Shown: in pieces, positions 3,413 to 18,981 of the stretch
Numbering within the stretch: position 1 is the stretch's first letter
How the letters are laid out: every line of letters begins with the position of its first letter
From: Flavobacteriales bacterium
GTDB taxonomy: Bacteria > Bacteroidota > Bacteroidia > Flavobacteriales_C > GCA-002722245
Assembly (NCBI GenBank): GCA_023251095.1
Contig: JAHEZL010000007.1
Coordinates: 15,136 to 79,135, forward strand
Direction: 5' to 3'
DNA length: 64,000 bases
The notes under the pieces: generated by a model
Seen by the model: the letters and a program-made list of their open reading frames with translations, nothing else
The model's database searches: none
What the model was told of the DNA's origin: nothing
Made by a program: the position numbers and the translations under genes

Positions 3413-4636
3413 TTAGAAGGTGCGCTGATAAGGGGTGGTTAAGGTAACTTTGGTACCTGAGGCCTGATTGTTATGATCGTACAAATCGGAGATTTGTATT
3501 TTTACACGGTCGTTTTTGTGCAAACTTTTAATGTGGTTTTCAGTAATCTCCATTCCCAGTGATTTTCTGTCTTTAAGTTCACTTGCAGCCTTTCGGCCAA
3601 TGCCATTGTCTTCAATTTCAATATGCAGGTGATCGTTCGGCCGCGGATGGATGCGTATCCATAATTTGGGCTGTTCTTTTTTCTGGAAGGCATGGATCAG
3701 TGCATTTTCCAGGTAGGGTTGAATGATAAAGGCCGGAATCTGAATGTCTTCAATATCCAAATCAGGATGGATGTCCAGTTCAAATGAAAAATTGTGCATC
3801 ATAGAGTGGTGCAATTCCAGGTAATGTTCCAAAAATTCTTTTTCTTCTTCAAGGCTATGGTAGAGTTCATCCGACTTTTCGAGGTTTAAGCGCAGCAGGT
3901 TGGAAAACTGAATGATTTGTGTGTGTGCCTCTTCATTCTTTTTGTCGTGAGTAAGATTGGTGATGGAGGTTAGCGCATTAAAAATAAAATGCGGGTTAAT
4001 CTTGAGTCGCAGATTTTTTTGCAGCAATTCACTGTTTTGCTGCTCGATCTTCAGGGTTTTGAGATAGTTTTTGTAACGGACTCTTATAATAACGTAATGG
4101 GCATAAATACAAATGATAAGCATGGTCACCTGATGGATAATCACAAAAGGAGCATTGCTGGTATTGGCAGTTGCAGGAGAGAAATAGATAACAATGGAAA
4201 GGTAAATGCTGTTCACCAGTAAAAGTGTGGTGATGCCATAGCGACGGGTGGAGGGAAGGAATAAAGTAAAAGCAACTTCCGTATGAATAAGGTTGATGAT
4301 ATAATTGTTGTTTTCCCAACCGTTGCCCATGAGTCCGGCATTGAGGGCATTTGGGATCGTATTGAGTATCACTGCCACGAGATAAATCATCTGGAACCAT
4401 TGCTTGATGAATTTCGGAAAAACATAGGAGCTTGCCAGAGCAAGGGCACAAAAAGAAATGGAAACGTATTTCAGGAAGGTGACAGCCGGCGGAACATTAC
4501 TTCTGAAAAAATCGGGCAATATACTGGAGATAAAAATCAGGATAACACCAACCAATGCCGTGATTCGGAATGAAGGCATTATTTCGGCGGAAAGGTGTGT
4601 CCAGTATTTATTTTTTTGTTTGGCGGATATAAACAT
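3413..4636 (-). CDS. Membrane sensor histidine kinase of the LytS/YehU family (HK1). It has no adjacent response regulator.
   Basis: The N-terminal half has several transmembrane segments. The NPHFIFNAL His_kinase (PF06580-type) motif and a C-terminal HATPase region (IEDNGIG) are present. It is a paralog of the 8662..9897 kinase. Confidence 0.8.
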   Translation of the reverse strand: MFISAKQKNKYWTHLSAEIMPSFRITALVGVILIFISSILPDFFRSNVPPAVTFLKYVSISFCALALASSYVFPKFIKQWFQMIYLVAVILNTIPNALNAGLMGNGWENNNYIINLIHTEVAFTLFLPSTRRYGITTLLLVNSIYLSIVIYFSPATANTSNAPFVIIHQVTMLIICIYAHYVIIRVRYKNYLKTLKIEQQNSELLQKNLRLKINPHFIFNALTSITNLTHDKKNEEAHTQIIQFSNLLRLNLEKSDELYHSLEEEKEFLEHYLELHHSMMHNFSFELDIHPDLDIEDIQIPAFIIQPYLENALIHAFQKKEQPKLWIRIHPRPNDHLHIEIEDNGIGRKAASELKDRKSLGMEITENHIKSLHKNDRVKIQISDLYDHNNQASGTKVTLTTPYQRTF

Positions 4637-4760
4637 TAGTATAAATGGGGGCAGCTATAAAATTGTTCTTACTCTTTCCTTTTTTTGATTTCTCTTCTCT
4701 TCTCGCGGGAGACACAAATATATGTATTCGTAGGAGAGTAGAAAAAATGTTTTTGCTTCT

Positions 4761-4792
4761 TGCCGTTAAAATAGTCGAATCTGCCGTTAAAT
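4761..4792 (+). promoter_or_regulatory. Direct-repeat pair TGCCGTTAAA x2, 22 bp apart, upstream of A1. This is a putative LytTR operator.
   Basis: Exact 10-mers at 4761-4770 and 4783-4792 lie 34 bp upstream of the TAGATTTG box. Confidence 0.45.
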
Positions 4793-4816
4793 AAATGGAT
4801 GTTTGTTTTGTTTTTT

Positions 4817-4824
4817 TATACCCT
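4817..4824 (+). promoter_or_regulatory. Candidate -7 promoter box TAGATTTG for the A1-B1 transcript.
   Basis: It matches the Bacteroidota TAnnTTTG consensus. It sits inside a 16-nt block (TAGATTTGCTGCCGAG) that is identical to the one upstream of A2. Confidence 0.4.
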
Positions 4825-4872
4825 AGATTTGCTGCCGAGGAAACTAAATTTATTAAACTAAAAAAATCTCTT

Positions 4873-6108
4873 ATGAGAAAGATATTGTTATGCTTGTCGG
4901 CAATTGCCTTGAATGTTTCTGTTAATGCACAATGGACCGGAACTAATCCAATAACAACCACCAGTGCCGTTGGTATTGGAACTACAACTCCTGTTGCCGG
5001 TAATATATTGCAATTAGAAGGAGGGCATTTGGCTATGTACGGCGGTTATATTCTTCCTTATGCAGGAAATTCAACAGTTCTGTTCCGCTCTGTGAATAAT
5101 AATTTTCCTAATTATTGGCTCCCTGAAAATTTAAATACTTACCGTCAATTTGAAATCGCACATGTTAGTCCAAATGGAGTAGATGTTGCCAACAGAAGAG
5201 GGTTCTTAAATCTAGCGGCAAATCAATATATTCAAATGAATGTCAATGGTTTTGATAAAATGAAAGTGGAGGAAACGGGGGTGTCGTTTAATGTAGCTCC
5301 AATCAATTCCTGGGCATCCAATGATGCTTTGATATTCCGTTCAATAAATAACAATTTCAATGGTGTTGTAACACCTCAATTTGAAATTAAACATGTTGAT
5401 CCTAATGGAGTAGAGCTTGCCAACAGAAGGGGTTTTTTGAATATAAAGGCAGATGCCGGAGTATTAAATTTAATGAGTAATCAAACGATTGTCATGTTTA
5501 CCAATGGTGCGCAAAGAATGGCTGTTGATGTAAATGGTAATGTGGGAATTGGACAATCAACGCCGGCTGCTAAGTTAGATGTTAATGGAACAGTAAGACT
5601 TGCTATACCGGGAGCGCAAGCGAGTTATGTATTGACATCATCCAATACAAGTGGAGATGCTACATGGCAGCCAATTTCTTCTTCTCAGTGGACAACAAGT
5701 GGTTCAAATATTACTTATTCAACAGGAGGGAATGTAGGAATAGGAACCAATAATTTTAGCACTCAGGCTACTACTCCTACTAATTCAAGTCAAAACAATT
5801 ATTATAAGTTGGCTGTTAATGGTTCTGTTCGTGCCAAAGAAGTTATGGTAGAATTAAATTGGGCTGATTATGTGTTTTCTAAGGAATATCAACTGAAATC
5901 ATTAAAAGAGGTTGAGCAATATATTAATCAGAATGGACATTTGCCGGGTGTTCCATCTGCTAAAGTTGTGGAAAATCAACAAGTGGGTTTGGGGGAATTG
6001 GCAAAAATTCAACAAGAAAAAATAGAAGAATTGACCCTTTATATTATAGCGTTGAGCAAACAATTAGAAACTCAACAAAAACAGATTGAAATTTTATCTA
6101 CAAAATAA
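4873..6108 (+). CDS. Secreted repeat protein with a tail-fibre-like C-terminal domain and a terminal coiled coil (A1).
   Basis: The listed ORF begins at 4795, but the signal peptide MRKILLCLSAIALNVSVNAQ starts at the ATG at 4873. Internal ~90-aa repeats contain ELANRRGFLN. The C-terminus reads AKEVMVELNWADYVF..LKSL.EVEQYINQNGHLPGVPSA, followed by a coiled coil. It is a paralog of 10361..12232. Confidence 0.5.
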   Translation: MRKILLCLSAIALNVSVNAQWTGTNPITTTSAVGIGTTTPVAGNILQLEGGHLAMYGGYILPYAGNSTVLFRSVNNNFPNYWLPENLNTYRQFEIAHVSPNGVDVANRRGFLNLAANQYIQMNVNGFDKMKVEETGVSFNVAPINSWASNDALIFRSINNNFNGVVTPQFEIKHVDPNGVELANRRGFLNIKADAGVLNLMSNQTIVMFTNGAQRMAVDVNGNVGIGQSTPAAKLDVNGTVRLAIPGAQASYVLTSSNTSGDATWQPISSSQWTTSGSNITYSTGGNVGIGTNNFSTQATTPTNSSQNNYYKLAVNGSVRAKEVMVELNWADYVFSKEYQLKSLKEVEQYINQNGHLPGVPSAKVVENQQVGLGELAKIQQEKIEELTLYIIALSKQLETQQKQIEILSTK

Positions 6109-6138: not shown

Positions 6139-7854
6139 ATGAAAAAAAGTACAATAATTTTGTTTGTCTTTTTCCTTATTGGAATAAGCAAAAGCGCATC
6201 GGCGACTTGGACGATAGATTTTAGTATGACAGATGGTCCTTCGTCAATCCAATTAAGCTGGGTCATTGATTATGCCTGGTATAATTTTGCAACTTTAGAA
6301 AACGGAAAACTTGAAAAAAGAGATGTTACAATAAATTCAGAGTGGGAAATGTATTCCATGTTAGTACTTGATAAACATCATTATCCGGCAGCAAGTCAAA
6401 ATTTCACCGATAATAATGTAATTGCGGGCCATGAGTATGAATACAAAGTTATTTATATATGGCAGGGCGATGTGCACGAGGATGTGGAGCATTTTGGGCG
6501 AATACGACATAGTGTTCCTTCTGTTCCAATTTATGATCCAAATTCATGGCAATTAATTTATCAGGAAGATTTTTCAGGAACATCTCTAGATCCTTCAAAA
6601 TGGTATGTAACCAATAATTATGATTTTTGGGGGAATCCAGATAAAGAAGATCATCATAGACCATATGTAAATACTAACAGACCTCAAAATTTTGAAGTTA
6701 GTAACGGTACTATGAAAATAACCGCTCGTCAGGAAGACTACACTTGTCCTAGCAATGATGCTTATTATTGTGGATATAAAGGTTCATCTGAACCTTATCA
6801 TTACACAACTGCACTTATTGAAACAGACTGTGAGAAATATAAATATGTTTATGCTGAGGCATTGATTAAAGTTCCTTTTAATACTGCAGGCGGTAGAGGT
6901 TTATGGCCGTCATTCTGGACTTTTAGAGCGGAAAACCGTGTGCCTGGTCCTAATGATGCGGGTGAAATTGATATTTTTGAAATGGACCAAGTTCCAAATA
7001 ATCCAGGTGATCAGTGGCTACCTACCAATGTGCATTTGGCATATGGAGATAATGCTCCTGAATGGCAGCAAACAGTGAATATAGGTCCGCATACAGGAAA
7101 TATATGGGTAAAATATGGAATAATGTGGGATGAAAATGTTATTAGATGGTATGTAAATGATGTTTTATATAGAGAAATTTCTAATCCAGGGGTTAATGAT
7201 GCTGAAAGATTTATTTTTAATATAGCTATCAGGGAAAATCCCGATAATTACATTTTTCCGGCTACCATGGAAGTGGATTATTTTAAGGTGTATGGAAAAA
7301 AAGTAAGCATGAATAATTACACTGTTCAGGTAGGAGAAATAAAAAATCAGTACTCCAGTTACAGCATTGATGTTGCCGGAAATGCAAATAATTATATTGT
7401 TGATGCCAATACTTCGGCTCATGGCACTTTAGATCTCTATGCAGAAAATAAAATAAAATTAAATCCAGGTTTTCATGCAAAATTGGGTAGTTCTTTTCAT
7501 GCGGAAATTAATGATGGATCAGAAAGTTATTGTAATCATGCCAATGGTAGTAATTCATATAAAAAAGATGATGATAATTCAGTTGCTAAAGAAAATAAAT
7601 CTGATAAAAAGATTTCAGAAACTGTTTATGGCATTTTCCCCAATCCCAGTAATGGATCTTTTCAAATTAATACTTCACCCGATCAGATTGGATCAAGTAT
7701 CAAAATTAATGATGTAACCGGACGGTTGATTTATAGCGGATTACTTAATGACATCTCTCAGAAATTAGAGTTGGATTTTCTTCCTTCAGGAATATATATT
7801 ATCAATCTGCAAAAAGCGGATCAAGTCTATACTCAAAAACTGATGATTAAGTAA
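6139..7854 (+). CDS. T9SS-secreted GH16-family glycoside hydrolase (beta-glucanase/laminarinase-like) with an N-terminal FN3-like domain and a C-terminal Por sorting domain (B1).
   Basis: There is a signal peptide. The GEIDIFEM motif matches the GH16 E-x-D-x-x-E catalytic motif. The C-terminus (FPNPSNGSFQIN...GIYIINLQ...KLMIK) looks like a T9SS CTD. Confidence 0.65.
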   Translation: MKKSTIILFVFFLIGISKSASATWTIDFSMTDGPSSIQLSWVIDYAWYNFATLENGKLEKRDVTINSEWEMYSMLVLDKHHYPAASQNFTDNNVIAGHEYEYKVIYIWQGDVHEDVEHFGRIRHSVPSVPIYDPNSWQLIYQEDFSGTSLDPSKWYVTNNYDFWGNPDKEDHHRPYVNTNRPQNFEVSNGTMKITARQEDYTCPSNDAYYCGYKGSSEPYHYTTALIETDCEKYKYVYAEALIKVPFNTAGGRGLWPSFWTFRAENRVPGPNDAGEIDIFEMDQVPNNPGDQWLPTNVHLAYGDNAPEWQQTVNIGPHTGNIWVKYGIMWDENVIRWYVNDVLYREISNPGVNDAERFIFNIAIRENPDNYIFPATMEVDYFKVYGKKVSMNNYTVQVGEIKNQYSSYSIDVAGNANNYIVDANTSAHGTLDLYAENKIKLNPGFHAKLGSSFHAEINDGSESYCNHANGSNSYKKDDDNSVAKENKSDKKISETVYGIFPNPSNGSFQINTSPDQIGSSIKINDVTGRLIYSGLLNDISQKLELDFLPSGIYIINLQKADQVYTQKLMIK

Positions 7855-7880
7855 AAAGTTTGTTTTTTTTAATATTAAAT

Positions 7881-7900
7881 CTCCGGTTTTTAACCGGGGA
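7881..7900. terminator. Bidirectional intrinsic terminator hairpin between B1 (+) and the LytTR regulator (-).
   Basis: The hairpin CCGGTT-ttt-AACCGG is flanked by an A-tract upstream and T8 downstream. Confidence 0.55.
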
Positions 7901-7906
7901 TTTTTT

Positions 7907-8659
7907 TTATTCTCCAATTGCAAACTGACTCAAAAAATCATCCTTCCTTCTTCTGGCCACGGCGATTTTTGCGCCGTTTTTCATCACCGCAAAACCACTG
8001 TGTTTTTCATACGATTTTACATGATCGAAATTAATCAGATGTGTTTTGTGAACCCTGAAAAATCTGCTGTCCTTTAGTAGCGTTTCGTATTCCTTTATGG
8101 TTTTGCAAACCAATACAGAAGATTCATCCATGAAAATGAATTTAGTGTAGTTGCCATCTGCTTCGCAGCGGGTAATTTCGTTGATGTTTACAAATTTATA
8201 TCCGCTCGAATCAGGCAATGCAATCTGATGTAAAGTATCGGTTTTAATATTTTGAATAAGACTGTTTATTTTTTTGTTTTCCAGTGAAGTATTGTTTTGC
8301 AAAACAATTTTTTCAAGTGCTTTTTCAACCGCAGTTTTTAATTCAGAAGGATCTATCGGTTTTAAAATATAATCAATCGCAGAAAATTTAAAGGCCTTTA
8401 CTGCAAATTCATCAAAGGCTGTAGTGAAGATGAGTTTGAACTGAATGTTTTCCAGTTTTTCAAAAACAGAAAAACTATTTTCATCTTCCAGCTTTACATC
8501 AGAAAAAACAATTTGAGGGTTATGCGTTTGAATGGCTTTAATCGCCTGCTCTACATTGGTTGCGTGCGCCACAATTTTTATTTCGGGAAATAACGCATTT
8601 AATAAAGATTTTAAATAATCATGAGCCGGCATTTGATCTTCAATGATGATTGCATTCAT
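7907..8659 (-). CDS. LytTR-family response regulator (REC domain plus LytTR DNA-binding domain).
   Basis: An N-terminal receiver domain (IIEDQ...FSDVKLED) and a C-terminal LytTR domain (...FFRVHKTHLINFDHV...) are present. It lies immediately downstream of HK2 on the same strand, consistent with one operon. Confidence 0.85.
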   Translation of the reverse strand: MNAIIIEDQMPAHDYLKSLLNALFPEIKIVAHATNVEQAIKAIQTHNPQIVFSDVKLEDENSFSVFEKLENIQFKLIFTTAFDEFAVKAFKFSAIDYILKPIDPSELKTAVEKALEKIVLQNNTSLENKKINSLIQNIKTDTLHQIALPDSSGYKFVNINEITRCEADGNYTKFIFMDESSVLVCKTIKEYETLLKDSRFFRVHKTHLINFDHVKSYEKHSGFAVMKNGAKIAVARRRKDDFLSQFAIGE

Positions 8660-8661
8660 AT

Positions 8662-9897
8662 TTAAAAGGTTTTTTCGTAAGAAGTAATTAAAGATACTTT
8701 GGTCCCCGCCGGCTGTCCGTTTTTGGCAAATAAATCCATAATTCTGATACTGATATTATCATTTTTATGGAGGGTTTTAATTCTGTTTTCAGTGATGTCC
8801 ATACCCATCGATTTTCTTTTGCTTTCTTTTTTTAATGCTGCCGCTGCCTTTCTGCCAATGCCATTGTCTTCAATTTCAATGGCTAAATATTCCTCGGATT
8901 GAGGACGTATGCGGATGCAAAGTTTATGTTCGTCATTGTTTTGAAAGGCATGTATCAGCACATTTTCCACATAAGGCTGAATGATAAAAGCGGGAATTTG
9001 TATGTTTTCGGTTTCCAGTTCCGAATCAATTTCCATAACAAAAGAAAAGTTTTTCGACATGCTGTGTTGCAGGTCGAGATAGGAGGTCAGGAATGTTTTT
9101 TCTTCTTCTACACTATGGTACAGCTCGTCGGATTTTTCAAGGTTGAAGCGCAATAGATTTGAAAACTTTACGATGTGCTCATGAGCCTCCTCGTTTTTTT
9201 TGGCGTAGGTTAAATTGGCAATGGATGAAAGTGCATTAAAAATAAAATGAGGATTGATTTTTAAGCGCAGGTTTTTTTGTAACAATTCATTTTTCTTTTT
9301 TTCAATTTGTAAGGTTTTCGAAAAGTTTTTATAACGAGCTCTTAAAATAGCATGGTGGCCGTAAATACAGATGGTGAGCATGGTCACCTGATGAATTAAA
9401 AGGAAGGGCATATTTTTAGTGGGACTTCCAACCGGACTGAAATAAATGTTATTAAAAAGATAAATGATGTTGATGATGATAAGCGTTGCCAATCCGTAAG
9501 GTCGCGATGAAGGCATAAATACGGTAAAAGCAATTTCAACGTGAATTAAATAGATGACATGGTCATTCGCGCCCCATCCTCCGTCTAAACCCGAATGAAT
9601 GGAGTTGGGCAGCATGATTAATACAACAGCCAGCAGATAAATCAGCTGGAACCATTTTTTGATTATTTCGGGAAAGAGGTAGGAAGTCACAATAGCTACC
9701 ACACAAAAGGCTATGGAAACGTATTTCAAATTGGTGATGGCGGCAGGCACTCCTCCGGTGCGGTAATCGCGCAGCGGCCCTGCTAAAAAAACCAGTACAA
9801 CAGCCGACAATAAAGTGATTCTGAAAGAAGGCAATATTTCTTCTCCGATATATCTCCAGTAGTCTTCCCGTTGTTTAGCAGATATAATCATTTGCAT
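8662..9897 (-). CDS. Membrane sensor histidine kinase of the LytS/YehU family (HK2), a paralog of HK1.
   Basis: It has the same NPHFIFNAL and HATPase blocks as HK1, with a diverged transmembrane sensing half. There is a 2-bp gap to the response regulator. Confidence 0.8.
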   Translation of the reverse strand: MQMIISAKQREDYWRYIGEEILPSFRITLLSAVVLVFLAGPLRDYRTGGVPAAITNLKYVSIAFCVVAIVTSYLFPEIIKKWFQLIYLLAVVLIMLPNSIHSGLDGGWGANDHVIYLIHVEIAFTVFMPSSRPYGLATLIIINIIYLFNNIYFSPVGSPTKNMPFLLIHQVTMLTICIYGHHAILRARYKNFSKTLQIEKKKNELLQKNLRLKINPHFIFNALSSIANLTYAKKNEEAHEHIVKFSNLLRFNLEKSDELYHSVEEEKTFLTSYLDLQHSMSKNFSFVMEIDSELETENIQIPAFIIQPYVENVLIHAFQNNDEHKLCIRIRPQSEEYLAIEIEDNGIGRKAAAALKKESKRKSMGMDITENRIKTLHKNDNISIRIMDLFAKNGQPAGTKVSLITSYEKTF

Positions 9898-9963: not shown

Positions 9964-9971
9964 CAAATATA
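9964..9971 (-). promoter_or_regulatory. Candidate Bacteroidota -7 promoter box (TATATTTG on the minus strand) for the HK2 and LytTR-regulator genes.
   Basis: It matches the TAnnTTTG consensus about 65 nt upstream of the HK2 start codon. Confidence 0.3.
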
Positions 9972-10049: not shown

Positions 10050-10146
10050 AAATTAAAAACCCTCCCGTGATACGGGAGGGTTTTTTAAGATAGCTAGGCT
10101 ACAGGCTTCTTATTCAACATCTGATTTTTAAAATCACAATGTTTTC
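10050..10146 (-). ncRNA. Candidate small RNA, copy 1. It contains the conserved box GCCTGTAGCCTAGCT and a palindrome, and ends in an intrinsic terminator.
   Basis: On the minus strand a TAAATTTG -7 box (10160..10153) lies downstream of the direct repeats. The hairpin CCCTCCCG-tgata-CGGGAGGG at 10060..10080 is followed by a T-tract. No CDS is present. A paralogous element lies at 18765..18905. Confidence 0.3.
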
Positions 10147-10202
10147 GATAGTCAAATTTATATTGAAAATCCGGAAACACACAGGAAACGGGCATGCACT
10201 TA

Positions 10203-10231
10203 TTTAACGGTAGGGATTACTGTTTTAACGG
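10203..10231 (-). promoter_or_regulatory. Direct-repeat pair (CCGTTAAA cores 21 bp apart) oriented toward the minus strand. This is a putative LytTR operator.
   Basis: The + strand has tttaacgg at 10203-10210 and again at 10224-10231. It lies 45-70 bp upstream of the minus-strand -7 box of the candidate sRNA. Confidence 0.4.
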
Positions 10232-10247
10232 TAAGTGATTAAAATTA

Positions 10248-10278
10248 TGCCGTTAATTCAGTCGCCGCTGCCGTTTAA
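10248..10278 (+). promoter_or_regulatory. Direct-repeat pair oriented toward A2 (tgccgttaat and tgccgtttaa, 21 bp apart). This is a putative LytTR operator.
   Basis: It has the same core and spacing as the 4761/4783 pair upstream of A1. The LytTR regulators AgrA and AlgR bind 9-10 bp direct repeats with ~12 bp spacers. Confidence 0.45.
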
Positions 10279-10310
10279 TAAATCTCACTTTTATTTTGAT
10301 TTTTATCACC

Positions 10311-10318
10311 TAGATTTG
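10311..10318 (+). promoter_or_regulatory. Candidate -7 promoter box TAGATTTG for the A2-B2 transcript.
   Basis: The box and its flanks are identical to those at 4817-4832. Confidence 0.4.
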
Positions 10319-10360
10319 CTGCCGAGTAACCTAAAAATATTAAACTAAAAAAACACTCAT

Positions 10361-12232
10361 ATGAAAAAAATGTTATTATGCCTTTCGGCAATCGCCCTTA
10401 CCTCTGCTGCGAATGCACAGTGGACAGGAACCAATCCATTAACAACTCCAAGTGCTGTTGGAATTGGTACATCACCTACCCTTAATTATATTCCTTTGCA
10501 GGTTCGTGCCGATGAGAGTTTATTTGGCGGAAGTGGAATTGTTGCTTCTTTTGAAAGATTCTCTCCAAATCCACTAAGTACAGGAAAACTCAATATTACA
10601 GTGAGTGATTTCGGTGATAGTTATAATGCGGGTGATATATTGATGGATGCTCAGGGGAATGCGGATATCGCATTAAGAACCCAAGGAGGATCAGGCGGGA
10701 TTTTGGTATTAAAAAGAAACGGAACAGTTGGTATCGGAACAGGTACTCCAACTACTGATGCGGCTGTGAAATTACATATTAAATCTTATGGAGCGGATCC
10801 ACAAAACGCTCAAATATTAATTGAATCTTCAGAAACACAAGCTGTGAGATTTGCTCGCTCAGGCATCAATACCTGGATCATGGGAAGAAGAGCAAGCGAC
10901 AATGCTTTTTCAATTACAGATTCCTATTTTTTCGACGGTAACACAGAGAAATTTGTTTTAAATGGTTCAGGATTTTTAGGATTGGGTGCGCAAACTCCAT
11001 CTGAGAAATTAGATATATTAAATGGTAACCTTAAATTAACGAACGGTACTTTTTTACCTTACGGAAATGATACAAGAGTTCTTTTCCAATCGCACAATAC
11101 TTCTGCATCAGGTAGTCCGGTTCAATTTGAAATGTTGCATCAGTCTAGCGGTGTTGAGCTAGCCAACAGAAGAGGATATCTTACTATGAGAGCCGATGAT
11201 GGTAATTTGAATTTACTGAGTTCTCAAAAAGTTTTAATGTACACAGGAGGAGTTCAGAGAATGGTGGTTGATCCAACCGGAAGAGTGGGAATTGGTCAAA
11301 CAGCGCCTGCATCAACATTGGATGTGAACGGAACCTTAAGATTGAGTGTTGCGGGAGCACAAGCAGGCTTTGTATTAACAGCCACCAATGCAAATGGAGA
11401 TGCTACATGGCAGGCACTTCCTACACCTGCTACACAGTGGTCAGTAAACGGAGCAGATGTATATCGTTCTACCGGAAATGTTGGTATTGGAACAAATACA
11501 CCTTCTGCCAGATTCCAGATAGTAGATGGTTCTACTCAAATGAGTTTAATGAGTACAGGTGTTAGCTCAGGAATGTACGGCACACAGTATTATGCAGGAA
11601 TTAATTTTGAAGGAGGAGATAAGATTACAGTTGGAAAAACTTTTAATCCAAATACATACGGAAGTCATTTCGCAATTAAAAATGAAACGAGAGCAAATTC
11701 GGCTTTAATTGCCTTGGCCTATGATAAAGTATACATTGGTGGAAGTTCAGCAGGAGTTAATGCGGTAAGTTTCAGCAATGACGGAGTTGTAAATATCGGA
11801 AGCGGAACTATCCCAGCCGGAAAAGGATATATGCTGGGTGTGAGAGGTAAAATTATTTGCGAAGAAGTAAAAGTTGCTTTGCATGCAGACTGGCCTTGGG
11901 CGGATTATGTTTTTGCTGACGATTACAAACTTACGTCTCTTGATTCATTAGAATCATACATCAAAGAAAACAAGCATTTACCAAACATCAGCTCAGCTAA
12001 AGAAATCAAAGAAGAAGGAATTAACCTGGGCCAAATGCAAAACAAGCACATGGAAAAAATCGAGGAGCTGACTTTGTATATTATTGAGTTGAACAAAAAA
12101 TTATCTGAGCAACAACAGTTGAATACTACAGCTAGTAATTTACAGGCTCAACAAGCTAAGCAAATTGAGCAACTTACTTCAGTGTTAATGGAAGTTAGCA
12201 AGAAAGTGGCAGAGCAAGCGCAGTCGAAATAA
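10361..12232 (+). CDS. Secreted repeat protein with a tail-fibre-like C-terminal domain and coiled coil (A2), a paralog of A1.
   Basis: The signal peptide is MKKMLLCLSAIALTSAANAQ. ELANRRGYL repeats are present. The C-terminus reads VKVALHADWPWADYVF..LTSLDSLESYIKENKHLPNISSA, followed by a coiled coil. Confidence 0.5.
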   Translation: MKKMLLCLSAIALTSAANAQWTGTNPLTTPSAVGIGTSPTLNYIPLQVRADESLFGGSGIVASFERFSPNPLSTGKLNITVSDFGDSYNAGDILMDAQGNADIALRTQGGSGGILVLKRNGTVGIGTGTPTTDAAVKLHIKSYGADPQNAQILIESSETQAVRFARSGINTWIMGRRASDNAFSITDSYFFDGNTEKFVLNGSGFLGLGAQTPSEKLDILNGNLKLTNGTFLPYGNDTRVLFQSHNTSASGSPVQFEMLHQSSGVELANRRGYLTMRADDGNLNLLSSQKVLMYTGGVQRMVVDPTGRVGIGQTAPASTLDVNGTLRLSVAGAQAGFVLTATNANGDATWQALPTPATQWSVNGADVYRSTGNVGIGTNTPSARFQIVDGSTQMSLMSTGVSSGMYGTQYYAGINFEGGDKITVGKTFNPNTYGSHFAIKNETRANSALIALAYDKVYIGGSSAGVNAVSFSNDGVVNIGSGTIPAGKGYMLGVRGKIICEEVKVALHADWPWADYVFADDYKLTSLDSLESYIKENKHLPNISSAKEIKEEGINLGQMQNKHMEKIEELTLYIIELNKKLSEQQQLNTTASNLQAQQAKQIEQLTSVLMEVSKKVAEQAQSK

Positions 12233-12263
12233 ATGTTTTTGAAATTAATTTAAAAATGAAATT

Positions 12264-14519
12264 ATGAAAATACATTTTTTAAAAGCAGGGCTCCTTTTAC
12301 TTTGGTTCTTTTCTTTCATTAGCTCGGCTAAAGCAGAGATAGCCGGTGAAGTTAAGTTTGAAGTTATGTCGACTTACATCAAAATAAGTTGGGATGTATT
12401 TCAAGAAAACCGATATGAGGGAATAGAACTCAAAAGGAGACGAGTAGGGGAATCGGCCTGGCAGTCTATTACTCCAAATGGCTTTGGAGAAACAAATGGT
12501 ACAGTGAATGAATACCAGGAGTTTTGGGATTATAATATTCAATATGGAACTAAGTATCAATATTTAGTTGTTTATGATGAAAAAGCTTGGTACGATGGTT
12601 TTCCAACAGGTAATAATTACAGAGAAGAAATTTTACCGGGAAAACCTACAGCCTGGGGTATTCCCTCTGATGTTGCTGCAGATTTAGAAACCTGGCCTGT
12701 GATCACAGTTAATGGTTATGCTGCTACGGTTCAAGTGTTGTATTCTAACAGATCTGATAAAAGGTTAAAAAAGCCCTTAATCATTGTGGATGGTTTCGAT
12801 CCTTTAAATAACAGGGATTTATTTAGTACAAAAGAAAAAAATGCCATAGATTCAAGAGGACTTTTTGCTTTAATGAATGGTGATCTTCCTTCGGGTCCAA
12901 GAGGAATTAATGCAGTGGGACAAATTCGTCAACAGTGTTATGATTTGGTTTTTGTAAACTGGCATGAAGGAGCCGGAGACGTTAGGAAAAATGCTGATTT
13001 ATTTATTCAAGTTGTCAATTTGGTCAATCAAGCAAAAGTAACCGCCGAACAACTGGTAGTGTTTGGTCCCAGTATGGGAGGTCTGATTACACGTTTAGCT
13101 TTAGCTAAAATGGAGATAAGTGGCCAGAATCACCAAACGAGATTATATATTTCTATGGACTCACCACATTTAGGAGGACAGGCTCCGATGGGTGTTCAGA
13201 AGTTAGGTCAAATAGTAGATAATATTAGAGGGACTCATACATTTGCGGATAGATTGGGATCAACGGCTGCAAAGCAAATGTTGAGATATCATCTTTTTGC
13301 TTCACCAGATGGTCATGTTGCTGATCAAGATGCTGAAAGGTATTCTTTTATTAATGATTTAAACAGTATGAGCAATAAAGGGTGGCCAATGAATTTGCGT
13401 AAAATAGCAATTTCTAATGGAAGTGTTTTGTCGGGCACAAACAGTTTAAATGGCGGTACACATATAGCTGATATCATGTGCGGTGCATTGGAATATGATA
13501 TTTATGCTTTTGGAAGAAGTGATAATGTATATATGATCAATCGTTTAACAACCGTTGAGTATAATACATCGCTGCCTCCGATTTTAACGGATAATTCTAG
13601 TGGTGGAACTATAAACTTTACTGAAATGTTAAGGACGATAGTTACCAATAATGGGGATGATTGTATGCATGATGAAGATCCTGGTCTTCAAACGAGCTCT
13701 TGTTTTATACCAATTAATAGTGCGTTTGCCTATAATGAAGCAGCAGCCAGTGATTATTCTAAGTACAATAATGGATTAAGTGCAGATAATATTCATAAAG
13801 TATGGGGATCACAAACACCATCTACTGTGAATACTCCTTTCGATGCATTGTTTGGTCAAACTTACAATCAAACCCATTGTCAGGTTGACCAAGTAACAAT
13901 TGACTGGCTCCTTCAGCAAATGGCCATTCAGGATCAATACGCTTTTGGAGACACCTATTTTCCTGTTCAAGGAAGTAGCGATATAAGTATCTACACCGGA
14001 GGAGGAAGTAATTGGGCTAAAAATATGTACTTCGCTTCTAATCCAAATGATGGGGCGCACATATATGGTACCGACCGAAAATTCATCGCGTCTAAAAGCA
14101 TTACCTTATCACCGGGTACGAAGGTTTTTTCTCTCGGCGGAACAGATCATCCATACACTGCTTTTCAAATTGGAGCCAGACCGGATTGCTATGGTCCTAT
14201 CACCCAGTATTCTAATCCGGCGGGTCCGCCGCCAATGGCAGAGAAAACTGATGAAACAGCCGATGCGGTTTCAGAGCTAAACATTCAAAATGTAAATGTT
14301 TATCCTAACCCGAATAATGGAAATTTCACTCTTCAGTTAAATCCCGATTGGATCAGTGGAACTATCGTTGTGACGGATCTTACCGGTCGCACTATGTATA
14401 CTGACCAAGTCCGCAGTAGCATGGAAAACATTACAGCTGATATAGCAGCGGGAGTTTACTCTGTTACGATAAGCAAAGGAGACAATAAAATAACTCGAAA
14501 ATTTGTGGTTGTAAAATAA
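12264..14519 (+). CDS. T9SS-secreted alpha/beta-hydrolase, a PGAP1-like/DUF676-type lipase or esterase with an N-terminal FN3-like domain (B2).
   Basis: There is a signal peptide. The nucleophile elbow is VVFGPSMGGLITR (GxSxG), followed by DSPHLGG. The C-terminal T9SS CTD reads YPNPNNGNFTLQL...VYSVTI...KFVVVK. Confidence 0.6.
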   Translation: MKIHFLKAGLLLLWFFSFISSAKAEIAGEVKFEVMSTYIKISWDVFQENRYEGIELKRRRVGESAWQSITPNGFGETNGTVNEYQEFWDYNIQYGTKYQYLVVYDEKAWYDGFPTGNNYREEILPGKPTAWGIPSDVAADLETWPVITVNGYAATVQVLYSNRSDKRLKKPLIIVDGFDPLNNRDLFSTKEKNAIDSRGLFALMNGDLPSGPRGINAVGQIRQQCYDLVFVNWHEGAGDVRKNADLFIQVVNLVNQAKVTAEQLVVFGPSMGGLITRLALAKMEISGQNHQTRLYISMDSPHLGGQAPMGVQKLGQIVDNIRGTHTFADRLGSTAAKQMLRYHLFASPDGHVADQDAERYSFINDLNSMSNKGWPMNLRKIAISNGSVLSGTNSLNGGTHIADIMCGALEYDIYAFGRSDNVYMINRLTTVEYNTSLPPILTDNSSGGTINFTEMLRTIVTNNGDDCMHDEDPGLQTSSCFIPINSAFAYNEAAASDYSKYNNGLSADNIHKVWGSQTPSTVNTPFDALFGQTYNQTHCQVDQVTIDWLLQQMAIQDQYAFGDTYFPVQGSSDISIYTGGGSNWAKNMYFASNPNDGAHIYGTDRKFIASKSITLSPGTKVFSLGGTDHPYTAFQIGARPDCYGPITQYSNPAGPPPMAEKTDETADAVSELNIQNVNVYPNPNNGNFTLQLNPDWISGTIVVTDLTGRTMYTDQVRSSMENITADIAAGVYSVTISKGDNKITRKFVVVK

Positions 14520-14540
14520 CAGATTTCTTTTTCTTTGAAA

Positions 14541-14565
14541 ATCCCCGGTAGAAATACCGGGGATT
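14541..14565 (+). terminator. Intrinsic terminator after B2.
   Basis: The hairpin ATCCCCGG-tagaaata-CCGGGGAT is followed by a T-rich tract. Confidence 0.6.
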
Positions 14566-14576
14566 TTTCTTTTTTC

Positions 14577-14606
14577 TACCGTTAAATAAATCAATATAAC
14601 CGTTCA
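14577..14606 (+). promoter_or_regulatory. A third copy of the operator-like motif (CTACCGTTAAATAAAT plus a second CCGTT core 21 bp downstream), upstream of B3.
   Basis: The 13-mer CCGTTAAATAAAT is shared with the A1 site, and CCGTTtAATAAAT with the A2 site. Confidence 0.35.
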
Positions 14607-14775
14607 TCCTTTTTATTTTTTAAAGAGACTTATCTGCTATAATTTGGTGCTATTGATTATGGGAGTAATCAACTTGAGCATAACTAAAACATAAATTGTG
14701 AAAAGAGTGTTGATCTGCCTTTCGTTATGGCCTTGAATTACCATAACGACTTTTAAAATAACTAAACCTGAACTT

Positions 14776-16980
14776 ATGAAATTAAAAAACTATTCTAGAT
14801 ATCTGTTGATAGCATTGTGTGTCATGGCCGGCAATTTATTTGCTACTCCGGTTACCTTCAATTATTTTACTCCAACTACATCCATTGGTGCTCTTTCTGT
14901 TACAAAAAAGATTGCGTCCGAACACAATGGCTCCATTTGTAGCGGTGAGTATATGACCATATTCGCATCCGGACATACTTCAATTGTGAAGCCATATATT
15001 ATTGTAGAAGGAATAGATTTTTTAAACGATCAGGATTTTCAGGCGCATGTGGATTTATACAACAATAATGTGTCTTCAGCTTCAAATTCTTTGTTGTTTA
15101 ACCTTTACAATAATGGCTATGATGTTATCATACTGGATTTTGATTATTCCGGAGATTATATTCAAAACAATGCTTTCCTGTTAGTGGAATTAATAAAACA
15201 CATCAATGCCATTAAAGCCAATACAGGTAATAATATGATCGTACAAGGTTATAGCATGGGTGGTTTAGTTGCGAGATATGCATTGACATGGATGGAAGCT
15301 AATCTGATTGAGCATCAAACCAGGTTGTTTATTACTCATGACACGCCACACAAAGGAGCAAATTTCCCTATAGGCCTGCAGGAATTAGTGAACGATATGA
15401 CAGAACACATGCCTATTGCTTGGGTTGGGTTTCAAACTATTTTGGCTTCATTTGAAAAATCATATCCAGGCGCTACTCAAATGTTAGTATACCATTGGTC
15501 ACATACACATGGTGGAACTGTTAGCGGTGCAGGAAGTAAAGCACTGCCCGCAAATAAAAAAATAAATTTTTTCCAGGAATTGTATAATCTTAATCCCAGT
15601 GATAATGGTTACCCTTCTAAACCGCTGAGAATTGCTGTTTCAAATGGAAATTATTCAGGTCAACTTCAGGCGGGAATTACCCCGGGAGATGCAATGTTAA
15701 GTTTCAATTATACCCGCACTGTAGGAACAAAGCATTACAAATGGCCTTCTCCACTTTGCGGCAGTCTTTTTGACTTTAATGGATGTGACATTAACTGGGG
15801 TGATGATTATTACAGAGGTACCGCTCGTTATGGATTTACAGGTTATACTGCTACTGAAAATTTTGAGTTTTATACTTCCGGAATTGCAGATTTCGGGAAT
15901 TTGGGTACAAGGACTTATTATCCGCTTTCGGGTAGTGGTTCGCAAAATTTTTCTACAGAAAATTACGATTATGATCGTGCACCGGGGTCCTACCTGCCAA
16001 GTTTCTTTTTAACGATAGTCGAAGATGCCATTAAAACGGGACTTACTTCAGATGTATATATTAATCCTAATCCGCCTTGCTTCATTGCCACTACAAGCGC
16101 ATTAGATTTAAATATGCCTATCAATTCAACTTTCGATCCTAATAACTCTCGTTGTTTTACCAATTTTGATTACATCTTTGCTAACAGTTCGGCCAATTTA
16201 CACCATTTTGAATTGGCTCCTTTGGCAAAAAACTTTATAATGACACATGTTTTGGTTAATGAGGTGCCTAATAGGCCAATTGCTTATCAGGGGTATGATT
16301 TAGTTATTCCCAATAATACTATTGTTTATTCCGGACAATCCTATAACAAAACAGTTCAGCATAACATTACTAATGCTGGGAATTTCACGCTCAAAAGCAA
16401 TAGCTCTTCTGGATTGATTGCTGGAAATTCAATTACCTTTTCCCCTGGTTTTAAAGCAGAAACAGGAAGTAATTTCTCTGCGAAAATAAAATCTGCAAGC
16501 TCAATGTGTAGTGGTGGAATAGCGTATTTACCAAATTATGTCCTTGATTATGTAGTGGGAGGTCCCCCGGTTGAAAATGGTCCGTTGCCAGAAGAAAATA
16601 CAACGGAAGACTTTAGTAACTATGTAGCTTATAATTGCTCAAATATGGAAGAAATGCCTAATTATTCTTCTGAACGAACTTACTTTATTTGTGATGTTGA
16701 TACAACCATTAATATTGATTCAACGCTTGCGCAAAACATTAGTATATATCCTAATCCTACCAGCGGGCCTCTGACCATTCAACTAAGCGATCAAATTCCT
16801 TTAAATGATTTGTCAATTAAAGTTTTTGATCCCTATAACAATTTAGTTGCTGAGTTTTTGACAGTAACATCAAGAACGGTGAATTTAGATTTTTCCAATG
16901 GCTATACAGGCTTGTATAATGTTCAGTTTAATTTCTTTTCCGGCGCGTACATTTATAGCCGGAAAGTCATGAAAATGTGA
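14776..16980 (+). CDS. T9SS-secreted alpha/beta-hydrolase (PGAP1-like lipase or esterase), a paralog of B2 (B3).
   Basis: There is a signal peptide. The motifs are IVQGYSMGGLVARYAL and HDTPHKGAN. The C-terminal T9SS CTD reads YPNPTSGPLTIQL...GLYNVQF... Confidence 0.6.
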   Translation: MKLKNYSRYLLIALCVMAGNLFATPVTFNYFTPTTSIGALSVTKKIASEHNGSICSGEYMTIFASGHTSIVKPYIIVEGIDFLNDQDFQAHVDLYNNNVSSASNSLLFNLYNNGYDVIILDFDYSGDYIQNNAFLLVELIKHINAIKANTGNNMIVQGYSMGGLVARYALTWMEANLIEHQTRLFITHDTPHKGANFPIGLQELVNDMTEHMPIAWVGFQTILASFEKSYPGATQMLVYHWSHTHGGTVSGAGSKALPANKKINFFQELYNLNPSDNGYPSKPLRIAVSNGNYSGQLQAGITPGDAMLSFNYTRTVGTKHYKWPSPLCGSLFDFNGCDINWGDDYYRGTARYGFTGYTATENFEFYTSGIADFGNLGTRTYYPLSGSGSQNFSTENYDYDRAPGSYLPSFFLTIVEDAIKTGLTSDVYINPNPPCFIATTSALDLNMPINSTFDPNNSRCFTNFDYIFANSSANLHHFELAPLAKNFIMTHVLVNEVPNRPIAYQGYDLVIPNNTIVYSGQSYNKTVQHNITNAGNFTLKSNSSSGLIAGNSITFSPGFKAETGSNFSAKIKSASSMCSGGIAYLPNYVLDYVVGGPPVENGPLPEENTTEDFSNYVAYNCSNMEEMPNYSSERTYFICDVDTTINIDSTLAQNISIYPNPTSGPLTIQLSDQIPLNDLSIKVFDPYNNLVAEFLTVTSRTVNLDFSNGYTGLYNVQFNFFSGAYIYSRKVMKM

Positions 16981-17014
16981 TTTAGATTAAAGAGGGTAAT
17001 GAAAACAATAAAAA

Positions 17015-17034
17015 CCCCCGGGAAATACCGGGGG
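17015..17034 (+). terminator. Intrinsic terminator after B3.
   Basis: The hairpin CCCCCGG-gaaata-CCGGGGG is followed by T5. Its loop sequence matches that of the B2 terminator. Confidence 0.6.
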
Positions 17035-17068
17035 TTTTTCTTTCCTTAATAAATCCTATTTTTAGGGT

Positions 17069-18441: not shown

Positions 18442-18767
18442 TGGAAATTTCAGCTTATCAGAAAGAAGTGGATCAGTGGATCAAAGATCACGGCGTTCGC
18501 TATTTTAATGAACTCACCAATACTGCTTTGTTGATGGAAGAAGTGGGGGAGTTGGCACGCATCATGGCGCGGAAATATGGCGAGCAATCTTTTAAAAATG
18601 CCGAAGAAGAAAAAAACTTAGGCGATGAAATGGCCGATGTACTTTTTGTGCTCACTTGTTTGGCCAATCAAACAGGAGTGAATCTGGAAGAAGCGATTAA
18701 ACGAAACATGGAAAAGAAAACTTCGCGCGATAAAAACCGACATAAAGAGAATGATAAATTGAAATAA
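18441..18767 (+). CDS. MazG-like nucleotide pyrophosphohydrolase (YpjD family).
   Basis: The EEVGELARI and DEMADVLFVL motifs are present, at 108 aa. Confidence 0.75.
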   Translation: MEISAYQKEVDQWIKDHGVRYFNELTNTALLMEEVGELARIMARKYGEQSFKNAEEEKNLGDEMADVLFVLTCLANQTGVNLEEAIKRNMEKKTSRDKNRHKENDKLK

Positions 18768-18905
18768 AAAAAACCTCCTGTTTAAGGAGGTTTTTTTTGT
18801 TTAGCTAGGTTACAGGCACTCTTACCAACATGTATATTTTCACATGTTTTTTTATAGTTGTAAGGATCAACTGGGTTAAAAGTATAGTGAAAACAGCAGA
18901 AGCCC
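18765..18905 (-). ncRNA. Candidate small RNA, copy 2. It contains GCCTGTAACCTAGCT and a stem AACATGT/ACATGTT, and ends at the bidirectional terminator.
   Basis: The 3' ~60 nt align with copy 1 (TAGCTAGGYTACAGGC..CTTA..CAACAT..ATTTT..ATGTTTT..ATAGT). Three CGG-core repeats lie upstream at 18928-18981. The -7 box is imperfect (TATCTTTT). Confidence 0.25.
18774..18790. terminator. Bidirectional intrinsic terminator (CCTCCT-gtttaa-GGAGG) flanked by A8 and T8.
   Basis: The hairpin has an A-tract upstream and a T-tract downstream. It terminates the mazG-like gene on the + strand and the candidate sRNA on the - strand. Confidence 0.55.
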
Positions 18906-18927
18906 ACCATAAAAGATAGAGCACTTA

Positions 18928-18981
18928 TTTTGCGGTAAGAAATGCAGTTTTATCGGTTGGATTTATAGATTAACGGCAGGG
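18928..18981 (-). promoter_or_regulatory. Three operator-like repeats (TTTTGCGGTAAGA, TTTTATCGGTTGG, ATTAACGGCAGGG) at ~20-21 bp spacing, oriented toward the minus strand.
   Basis: They resemble TTTAACGGTAGGG and TTTTAACGGTAAG at 10203-10235. The flank CACTTATTT is conserved in both copies. Confidence 0.3.

What the first reader, a model, noticed from the sequence alone, without database searches (positions are those of the whole stretch)
4761..4792. Conserved 21-22 bp-spaced CCGTTAAA direct repeats upstream of every cargo operon, a putative LytTR operator
TGCCGTTAAA occurs twice, 22 bp apart, upstream of A1 (4761 and 4783). The same core occurs twice, 21 bp apart, upstream of A2 (10248 and 10269). 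A related pair lies upstream of B3 (14577 and ~14600). The 13-mer CCGTT(A/T)AATAAAT is shared by all three sites. Spacing of about two helical turns between ~10-bp direct repeats is the hallmark of LytTR regulators such as AgrA, AlgR and ComE. Such a regulator is encoded between the two modules.
Basis: seen in the sequence. Interest (0 to 1): 0.7.

Follow-up and report, generated by a model that had tools for sequence, protein, structure and literature searches.

The report
LytTR operator pairs controlling secreted-enzyme operons
Pairs of a short DNA word (CCGTTAAA) spaced exactly 21 bases apart sit in front of three secreted-enzyme operons and two tiny RNA-like genes around a two-component sensor system in an uncultured Flavobacteriales bacterium; they are almost certainly the docking sites of that system's LytTR-type regulator, which is a well-known kind of switch found here in a group where it has hardly been studied.

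Summary
The spacing is 21 bp at every site, not 22. There are five sites, not three. CCGTT-N16-CCGTT occurs 4 times in the window against 0.07 expected, and every copy is intergenic within 4.7-14.6 kb. A fifth, degenerate site lies at 18.9 kb.

In the three cargo promoters the proximal box starts exactly 40 bp upstream of a Bacteroidetes sigma-A -7 box (TAnnTTTG). Each precedes a roughly 100-nt unit that ends in a terminator and looks like a small RNA (M, M2).

The box ACCGTTAAA fits the published LytTR consensus in sequence, direct-repeat form, 12-bp gap and position. The only LytTR regulator in the window lies in the middle of the cluster.

Comparative evidence agrees:
- Three related lineages with an intact kinase-regulator pair carry one perfect pair each, always next to the kinase gene.
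- A close relative that has deleted the pair has lost the boxes at the homologous position.
- 80 loci of distant LytTR regulators show no enrichment.

Verdict: the LytTR operator reading is supported (about 0.8, no binding data). It is a new member of a known kind. The small RNA-like targets are the most novel part.

The parts
4762..4791 (+). A1 operator. Distal box GCCGTTAAA at 4762-4770 and proximal box GCCGTTAAA at 4783-4791, 21 bp start to start.
4824..4831 (+). Predicted sigma-A -7 box TAGATTTG of the A1-B1 operon, 40 bp downstream of the proximal CCGTT. Predicted transcription start about 4836; ATG at 4873.
   Evidence: -7 box position -12..-5 from PMC9723704
4873..7854 (+). Operon A1 (4873-6108; signal peptide, tail-fibre-like repeats, no Pfam hit) plus B1 (6139-7854; GH16 and type IX secretion C-terminal domain). 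Terminator at 7877-7903.
10249..10278 (+). A2 operator. Distal box GCCGTTAAT at 10249-10257 and proximal box GCCGTTTAA at 10270-10278, 21 bp apart.
10311..10318 (+). Predicted -7 box TAGATTTG of the A2-B2 operon, 40 bp from the proximal core. ATG at 10361.
10361..14519 (+). Operon A2 (10361-12232) plus B2 (12264-14519; alpha/beta-hydrolase, lipase-like, with type IX secretion C-terminal domain). Terminator at 14537-14568.
14578..14607 (+). B3 operator. Distal box ACCGTTAAA at 14578-14586 and proximal box ACCGTTCAT at 14599-14607, 21 bp apart. It starts directly after the B2 terminator.
14640..14647 (+). -7-like box TAATTTGG, 40 bp from the proximal core. A leader of about 125 nt precedes the B3 ATG at 14776.
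14776..16980 (+). B3: lipase-like alpha/beta hydrolase with type IX secretion C-terminal domain. Terminator at 17010-17039.
10203..10232 (-). Distal box ACCGTTAAA at 10232-10224 and proximal box ACCGTTAAA at 10211-10203, 21 bp apart. It lies back-to-back with the A2 operator.
10055..10160 (-). Short unit M. -7 box TAAATTTG at 10160-10153, 50 bp from the proximal core. Predicted transcript of about 95 nt ending at the hairpin 10060-10080 plus a U-run. It lies upstream of, and points the same way as, HK2-RR.
18928..18977 (-). M2 operator with three boxes: GCCGTTAAT (18977-18969), ACCGATAAA (18957-18949) and ACCGCAAAA (18936-18928). Spacings are 20 and 21 bp. The cores are degenerate.
18763..18884 (-). 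Short unit M2, a paralogue of M. -7-like box TACTTTTA at 18884-18877, 51 bp from the proximal core. Transcript of about 105 nt ending at the terminator hairpin 18790-18774. It converges on the end of the MazG gene, so no gene lies downstream.
7907..8659 (-). Response regulator with a receiver domain (Asp54) and a LytTR DNA-binding domain. It is the proposed binder.
8662..9897 (-). HK2, a LytS-type histidine kinase (PF06580 plus HATPase_c) with an N-terminal region that has no Pfam match. It has its own -7 box TATATTTG at 9971.
3413..4636 (-). HK1, a paralogous orphan kinase 61% identical to HK2, divergent from A1. It has its own -7 box TATATTTG at 4722.

Best explanation
The 21-bp-spaced RCCGTTAAA direct repeats are the operator of the LytTR response regulator encoded at 7907-8659.

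Proposed mechanism (inferred):
1. An unknown signal is sensed by the paralogous kinases HK2 and/or HK1.
2. The regulator is phosphorylated on Asp54.
3. Two LytTR domains bind the two boxes on the same face of the helix, since 21 bp is two turns.
4. From about -74..-45 (cargo promoters) or -84..-55 (M, M2) they help sigma-A RNA polymerase start at the downstream TAnnTTTG promoter.

The regulon visible in the window has five members. Three are operons for secreted proteins: A1 plus a GH16 enzyme, A2 plus a lipase-like enzyme, and the lipase-like B3. The enzymes are exported by the type IX secretion system. The other two are short terminator-bounded units, M and M2, that look like small RNAs. Read-through of the M terminator could also give positive autoregulation of HK2-RR.

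Shown: the sites, their statistics, their geometry, and their gain and loss together with the regulator genes. Inferred: binding, activation rather than repression, the transcription starts and the signal.
For: 1. Enrichment and location. There are 4 perfect CCGTT-N16-CCGTT pairs against 0.07 expected, all intergenic and all within 6.8 kb of the regulator gene. A fifth, degenerate site was found by PWM. No other such pair was found in 1.3 Mb of other loci.
2. Geometry. The proximal core lies exactly 40 bp upstream of TAGATTTG, TAGATTTG and TAATTTGG at A1, A2 and B3. It lies 50 and 51 bp upstream at M and M2. TAnnTTTG occurs only about 5e-4 per bp per strand.
3. Fit to the family. The AgrA/LytTR consensus is [TA][AC][CA]GTTN[AG][TG], as direct repeats 12-13 bp apart upstream of the -35 element (PMC5600425). 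AlgR cores are CCGTTCGTC and CCGTTCATC, and the latter is identical to the B3 proximal box (PMC4064291).
4. Candidate binder. REC+LytTR regulator with Pfam E-values 3e-17 and 1e-15. It is the only one in the window.
5. Independence of the sites. B3, M and M2 share nothing with A1/A2 outside the boxes.
6. Orthologous loci. L084 (regulator 63% identical), L124 (62%) and L126 each carry exactly one perfect pair, always in the intergenic region next to the kinase, with a -7-like box at +40 or +41. Between L084 and L124 the boxes are the main conserved block of that region, alongside the stretch just upstream of RsgA. Between L084 and L126 the boxes are conserved while four-fold synonymous sites are saturated at 32-44% identity.
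7. Loss together. In L089 (Der, GH26 and RsgA 85-88% identical to the window) the kinase-regulator pair is reduced to fragments. The homologous upstream region of the A gene reads CACTT where the window has CCGTT, and the locus has no pair even with one mismatch allowed.
Against: - There is no binding, footprint, transcription-start or expression data. The promoters are consensus predictions only.
- The A1 and A2 promoter regions are paralogous (74-86% identical from the boxes to codon 40), so they count as one observation rather than two.
- The M and M2 boxes are 10 bp further from their -7 box than those of the cargo promoters, and the M2 cores are degenerate.
- The boxes in the orthologous lineages (ACCGTTCCC) differ from the window's after the CCGTT core.
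- 80 loci of more distant LytTR regulators (44% identity or less) show no such pairs near them, so the motif is lineage-specific and cannot be transferred from a characterised homologue.
- The rest of the genome could not be scanned.
Confidence: 0.8

Rival explanations
1. The repeats are an operator, but for a different transcription factor encoded elsewhere in the genome. The neighbouring LytTR system would be coincidental.
For: No binding data exist. Only 64 kb of the genome was available. Distant LytTR loci lack the motif.
Against: Direct 9-bp repeats at a 21-bp period are the specific LytTR architecture. The pair follows the kinase-regulator genes in three other lineages. It decays where those genes are deleted. 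No other regulator gene lies in the cluster.
Confidence: 0.08
2. The boxes are bound by the LytTR regulator, but it represses rather than activates. Alternatively, in the orthologous loci the boxes mainly control the divergent kinase-regulator operon.
For: In L084 the distal box is only 37 bp from the kinase start codon, so it must overlap the kinase promoter. AlgR represses at some sites (PMC4064291).
Against: In the window the boxes sit at about -74..-45 relative to predicted starts, which is an activator position. They point in the direction of transcription, as at AgrA-activated promoters. HK1 and HK2 have their own box-free TATATTTG promoters.
Confidence: 0.1
3. The repeats are non-functional leftovers of segmental duplication of the kinase/A/B module, or chance.
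For: The HK1-A1-B1 and HK2-A2-B2 modules are duplicates, and the A1 and A2 upstream regions are 74-86% identical.
Against: The coding parts of the duplicates have diverged to 34-61% amino-acid identity, yet the boxes persist. The B3, M and M2 sites are unrelated in sequence outside the boxes. 0 of 100 shuffles reach the observed count. The boxes are conserved across lineages whose synonymous sites are saturated.
Confidence: 0.02

Closest known systems
AgrA operators at the divergent agr P2/P3 promoters of Staphylococcus aureus
   Same: Imperfect direct 9-bp repeats (ACAGTTAAG-like, against ACCGTTAAA here) with a 12-13 bp gap, upstream of the promoter, bound by a REC+LytTR regulator (PMC5600425). 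Two pairs lie back-to-back in one intergenic region. One drives the kinase-regulator side and a small RNA, the other drives effector genes. At 10203-10278 the M and A2 operators are arranged in the same way.
   Different: The kinase is LytS-type (PF06580), not the AgrC type. No AgrB or AgrD peptide-signal genes are present. The promoters are Bacteroidetes sigma-A type (TAnnTTTG). The targets are type IX secretion enzymes. M and M2 are about 100 nt and have no Rfam match.
AlgR (AlgZ/FimS-AlgR) binding sites of Pseudomonas aeruginosa
   Same: The core is CCGTTCGTC or CCGTTCATC. The CCGTT core is identical, and the B3 proximal box CCGTTCATC equals the rhlI site (PMC4064291). The kinase is of the LytS/His_kinase type.
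   Different: AlgR sites are often single or irregularly spaced and may lie far from the promoter. Here the pairing is strict at 21 bp and the distance to the promoter is fixed.
ComE, BlpR and PlnC/D operators of Gram-positive peptide quorum-sensing regulons
   Same: Two direct repeats about 12 bp apart with critical spacing, placed before several operons of secreted products plus the regulator's own locus (reviewed in PMC4064291).
   Different: No pheromone peptide or ABC exporter was found. A different phylum and secretion route are involved, and the signal is unknown.

Membership tests
LytTR-regulator operator (AgrA/AlgR/ComE/PlnC type) | Two imperfect direct (not inverted) repeats of about 9 bp | tested here: met
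   Eight half-sites yTRCCGTTAAAWA, all direct
LytTR-regulator operator (AgrA/AlgR/ComE/PlnC type) | A 12-13 bp gap between repeats (21-22 bp period), kept strictly | tested here: met
   21 bp at A1, A2, B3, M, L084, L124 and L126; 20 and 21 bp at M2
LytTR-regulator operator (AgrA/AlgR/ComE/PlnC type) | Core fits [TA][AC][CA]GTTN[AG][TG] | tested here: met
   ACCGTTAAA fits 8 of 9 positions and GCCGTTAAA fits 7 of 9. The consensus is taken from PMC5600425.
LytTR-regulator operator (AgrA/AlgR/ComE/PlnC type) | Located just upstream of the promoter's upstream element and pointing in the direction of transcription | tested here: inconclusive
   A fixed 40-bp (or 50-bp) offset to predicted TAnnTTTG boxes. 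No transcription starts have been mapped.
LytTR-regulator operator (AgrA/AlgR/ComE/PlnC type) | A cognate REC+LytTR regulator is encoded at the locus, and its presence tracks the sites | tested here: met
   Pfam hit. Pairs are present beside intact orthologues and absent where the regulator is deleted.
LytTR-regulator operator (AgrA/AlgR/ComE/PlnC type) | The regulator binds the repeats, and phosphorylation increases affinity | not testable with these tools
   Needs EMSA or footprinting
agr-type peptide quorum-sensing system | AgrD-like peptide precursor, AgrB-like processing enzyme and AgrC-type kinase | tested here: not met
   The kinases are PF06580 LytS-type. The small ORFs in M and M2 show mostly non-synonymous change and end in different reading frames. 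No exporter or processing gene is in the cluster.
LytS/LytR-type (YehU/YehT-like) two-component system | Kinase with His_kinase (PF06580) plus HATPase_c, and a REC+LytTR regulator | tested here: met
LytS/LytR-type (YehU/YehT-like) two-component system | 5TM-Lyt (PF07694) and GAF sensor domains in the kinase | tested here: not met
   No such Pfam hit at E <= 0.01. The N-terminal 190 residues have no Pfam match.

The most novel reading that the evidence does not exclude
The ancestral core of this system may be a LytS/LytTR two-component pair plus one operator-driven small non-coding RNA, an arrangement like agr P3/RNAIII but in Bacteroidota. The secreted-enzyme operons would have been recruited later by acquiring the same boxes.

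Support:
- Lineages with no cargo genes (L084, L124, L126) still keep the box pair, a -7-like box at +40 or +41, about 100-130 nt and a terminator beside the kinase.
- Between L084 and L126 that transcript is about 90% identical with indels that are not multiples of three, while synonymous sites are saturated.
- The window has two such units, M and M2. M2 has no downstream gene.

Caveat: M/M2 and the L084-type units share no detectable sequence homology, and the L124 unit is not conserved with L084.
Probability: 0.4. Interest if true: 0.6.

Novelty: new member of a known kind. Interest (0 to 1): 0.42.

Why it matters
LytTR regulators are among the commonest response regulators in Bacteroidota. 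I found no paper in the searchable library that defines an operator for one, or links one to type IX secretion cargo.

This locus gives a compact and testable case:
- a defined 30-bp operator;
- a fixed distance to the phylum-specific promoter;
- five targets;
- natural controls, namely relatives with an empty site, a deleted system or only the small unit.

It would let someone map a LytTR regulon in an uncultured Flavobacteriales lineage. It would also let them ask whether secreted glucanase and lipase-like enzymes are switched on together by one signal. The mechanism itself would not surprise a specialist.

Tried and rejected
- Distant regulator homologues. 80 genome loci with 32-44% identical LytTR regulators had only 2 perfect pairs in 1.3 Mb, which is the chance level. 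Both were 5 kb or more from the regulator gene; the one whose reading frames I checked (L048) lies inside a long ORF. The motif is therefore not general to the family.
- Small peptide in M and M2. ORFs of 33 and 42 aa, and an 8-codon ORF, exist. Their start codons lie between the boxes and the -7 box. Changes between the two copies are mostly non-synonymous and the reading frames differ at the end. I rejected a pheromone-peptide reading.
- Pairing of M or M2 RNA with the 5' regions of A1, A2, B3, HK1 and HK2. No score exceeded shuffled controls. No complement of the conserved GCCTGTARCCTAGCTA exists in the window.
- Rfam. Nothing passed gathering thresholds. Only terminator-driven chance hits appeared at E <= 1.
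- Metagenome scan for the M/M2 conserved stretch gave 0 hits.
- Metagenome scan for CCGTTAAA-N13-CCGTTAAATAA gave 33 loci. About 20 are intergenic, and several lie upstream of signal-peptide proteins. Two (L109, L116) lie directly beside LytS/LytTR genes. Others are tandem repeats or coding. The downstream proteins have no common family. This is suggestive only.
- nhmmer found no homology between M/M2 and the L084/L126 units.
- L087 was unusable because of a 100-N gap across the key intergenic region. L124, the same organism, replaced it.

Full report
**What is in the sequence**

The reported decamers exist. TGCCGTTAAA starts at 4761 and 4782. TGCCGTT starts at 10248 and 10269. CCGTT cores lie at 14579 and 14600.

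The pattern CCGTT-N16-CCGTT occurs four times in the 64-kb window against 0.07 expected. None of 100 dinucleotide-preserving shuffles reaches four. It lies on the minus strand at 10232-10203, back-to-back with the A2 pair.

I built a weight matrix from the eight half-sites (consensus yTRCCGTTAAAWA). It finds a fifth site on the minus strand at 18977-18928, with three boxes at 20 and 21 bp and degenerate cores CCGAT and CCGCA. The same pair threshold finds no further site in 1.3 Mb of loci from other bacteria.

**Gene context**

Pfam gives the following map:

| Feature | Coordinates (strand) | Annotation |
|---|---|---|
| HK1 | 3413-4636 (-) | LytS-type kinase |
| A1 | 4873-6108 (+) | signal peptide, tail-fibre-like repeats |
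| B1 | 6139-7854 (+) | GH16 plus type IX secretion C-terminal domain |
| Regulator | 7907-8659 (-) | REC + LytTR |
| HK2 | 8662-9897 (-) | LytS-type kinase |
| A2 | 10361-12232 (+) | paralogue of A1 |
| B2 | 12264-14519 (+) | lipase-like plus C-terminal domain |
| B3 | 14776-16980 (+) | lipase-like plus C-terminal domain |

Terminators follow B1, B2 and B3. A profile search shows that these are the only three genes with that secretion domain in the window. It also shows only one LytTR regulator and two kinases of this type.

**Promoter geometry**

Bacteroidetes sigma-A promoters carry TAnnTTTG at -12..-5 (PMC9723704). The proximal CCGTT starts exactly 40 bp upstream of TAGATTTG at A1 and at A2, and of TAATTTGG at B3. 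The offset is 50 bp to TAAATTTG at M and 51 bp to TACTTTTA at M2.

This places the boxes at about -74..-45 for the cargo promoters. At M and M2 they sit one helical turn further upstream. HK1 and HK2 each have a separate, box-free TATATTTG.

**The two missed sites**

The M site is followed by about 95 nt and a strong hairpin (10060-10080) with a U-run. This lies upstream of HK2.

The M2 site starts just after the terminator of an unrelated gene. It is followed by about 105 nt and a terminator, and it converges on the end of the MazG gene. It is therefore a self-contained unit.

M and M2 are paralogues (nhmmer E = 1e-47 or lower). Their conserved blocks are:
- the boxes;
- the -7 region;
- a 30-nt stretch, ATGTTGnnAAGAnnGCCTGTArCCTAGCTA;
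- the terminator.

The small ORFs that overlap them begin upstream of the -7 box and differ mostly by non-synonymous changes. I read these units as small RNAs, not peptides. They match no Rfam family.

**Fit to the LytTR family**

Published LytTR operators are imperfect direct repeats with consensus [TA][AC][CA]GTTN[AG][TG]. They are 12-13 bp apart and lie upstream of the -35 element (PMC5600425). AlgR cores are CCGTTCGTC and CCGTTCATC (PMC4064291).

ACCGTTAAA fits 8 of 9 consensus positions. The B3 proximal box is identical to the AlgR rhlI site. The regulator has an intact receiver domain (Asp54) and an intact LytTR domain.

**Comparative evidence**

The regulator has few orthologues. Four clusters are 60-63% identical and the rest are 45% or less. 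Synteny shows the kinase-regulator pair sits between the Der and RsgA genes.

- *L084.* Regulator 63% identical. A perfect pair lies at 8736/8715 in the 276-bp region between RsgA and the kinase. TATACTTG lies 41 bp downstream, followed by about 110 nt and a terminator.
- *L124.* Regulator 62% identical. A perfect pair lies at 9772/9793, a -7-like box at +41, and then a terminator.
- *L126.* Kinase 60% identical to HK2. A perfect pair lies at 1033/1054, with TATAATTG at +40.

Each locus has exactly one perfect pair, always in that intergenic region. At the shuffle rate the chance of this is roughly 3e-4 per locus.

Between L084 and L124, the boxes and the RsgA-proximal region are the only well-conserved blocks. 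Between L084 and L126, four-fold synonymous sites are only 32-44% identical. Even so, the boxes and the short transcript are conserved. The transcript is about 90% identical and carries indels that are not multiples of three. The box-to-promoter spacer is not conserved.

- *L089.* A close relative (Der 88%, GH26 85%, RsgA 88% identical). It retains only regulator residues 163-250 and kinase residues 8-35. It still has an A gene plus a type IX secretion cargo gene. At the position homologous to the A1 boxes it reads CACTT for CCGTT. The locus has no pair even with one mismatch allowed.
- *Empty sites.* Two further relatives have Der and RsgA directly adjacent, with no such system between them.
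- *Distant regulators.* Eighty loci of LytTR regulators at 44% identity or less show only chance-level pairs.

**Duplication caveat**

HK1 and HK2 are 61% identical, A1 and A2 are 34%, and B2 and B3 are 28%. In contrast, the stretch from the distal box to codon 40 is 74-86% identical between A1 and A2, against about 49% elsewhere.

This shows either constraint or gene conversion. A1 and A2 therefore count as one observation. B3, M and M2 are unrelated outside the boxes.

**Wider occurrence**

A metagenome scan for CCGTTAAA-N13-CCGTTAAATAA returned 33 loci. About 20 are intergenic, and several lie upstream of signal-peptide proteins. Two lie directly beside LytS/LytTR genes. The rest include tandem repeats and coding hits. 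This hints that the same box type is used by other Bacteroidota LytTR systems, but it is not strong evidence.

**Verdict**

It remains unproven because no binding data exist. The kind of element is well known, so this is a new member of it in a poorly studied phylum.

The most novel reading is a core of a two-component system plus a small RNA, resembling agr P3/RNAIII. That reading is plausible but rests on predicted promoters. Sequence conservation supports it in only one pair of lineages. No homology is detectable between the window's units and those lineages.

Noticed in passing
window 10055-10232 (-) and 18763-18977 (-): Two paralogous units, each with an operator, a promoter, about 100 nt and a terminator (M, M2). 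They share ATGTTGnnAAGAnnGCCTGTArCCTAGCTA, have no Rfam match and show no convincing coding signal. They are probably small RNAs dependent on the LytTR regulator.
   Followed up: yes
L084 8528-8736 (-), L126 1029-1243 (+), L124 9772-9966 (+): Relatives without A/B cargo genes keep a box pair, a -7-like box, a short transcript and a terminator between the kinase and RsgA. The L084 and L126 transcripts are about 90% identical although synonymous sites are saturated. They show no detectable homology to M or M2.
   Followed up: partly
window 4760-4992 vs 10247-10480: The promoter, 5' UTR and first 40 codons of A1 and A2 are 74-86% identical, while the rest of the genes is at background level (about 49%). 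The 5' UTR is the best-conserved part (86%). This suggests gene conversion or an extra regulatory function of the leader.
   Followed up: partly
L089 9294-9615: A close relative carries an internal deletion that fuses kinase residues 8-35 to regulator residues 163-250, so the system is dead there. It still has an A gene plus a reprolysin-like cargo gene with a remodelled upstream region.
   Followed up: yes
contigs of P0245 and P0251 (no DNA returned): In two relatives the Der and RsgA genes are directly adjacent, 40-63 bp apart. The kinase-regulator pair and the cargo genes therefore form a variable island at this site. Cargo content differs between lineages: GH16 and lipase-like here, reprolysin-like in L089, none in L084, L124 or L126.
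   Followed up: partly
window 14652-14775: B3 has a long predicted leader of about 125 nt. It contains an 8-bp hairpin (CGTTATGG...CCATAACG) followed by CTTTT, which could be an attenuator.
   Followed up: no
window 19063-19356 (-) and 19411-19734 (-): Two small secreted proteins of 97 and 107 aa, rich in Cys and Lys (CC and CxxC motifs), lie just upstream of M2. They may bind metal.
   Followed up: no
L124 8397-9627 and L087 8760-9990: The orthologous kinase is split into 187-aa and 215-aa ORFs in two independent assemblies of the same organism. This may be a genuine frameshift or pseudogene.
   Followed up: no
L109 1574-1605 and L116 584-615: Metagenome contigs carry the identical box pair (CTGCCGTTAAATAA... 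and ACCGTTAAATAA) immediately downstream of LytS-type kinase or LytTR regulator genes that are only about 32-38% identical to the window's. The box type may therefore be shared by other Bacteroidota LytTR systems.
   Followed up: partly
window 10191-10186 (-): A third CCGTTT core lies 19 bp downstream of the M proximal box, between that box and the -7 box. Its significance is unknown.
   Followed up: no
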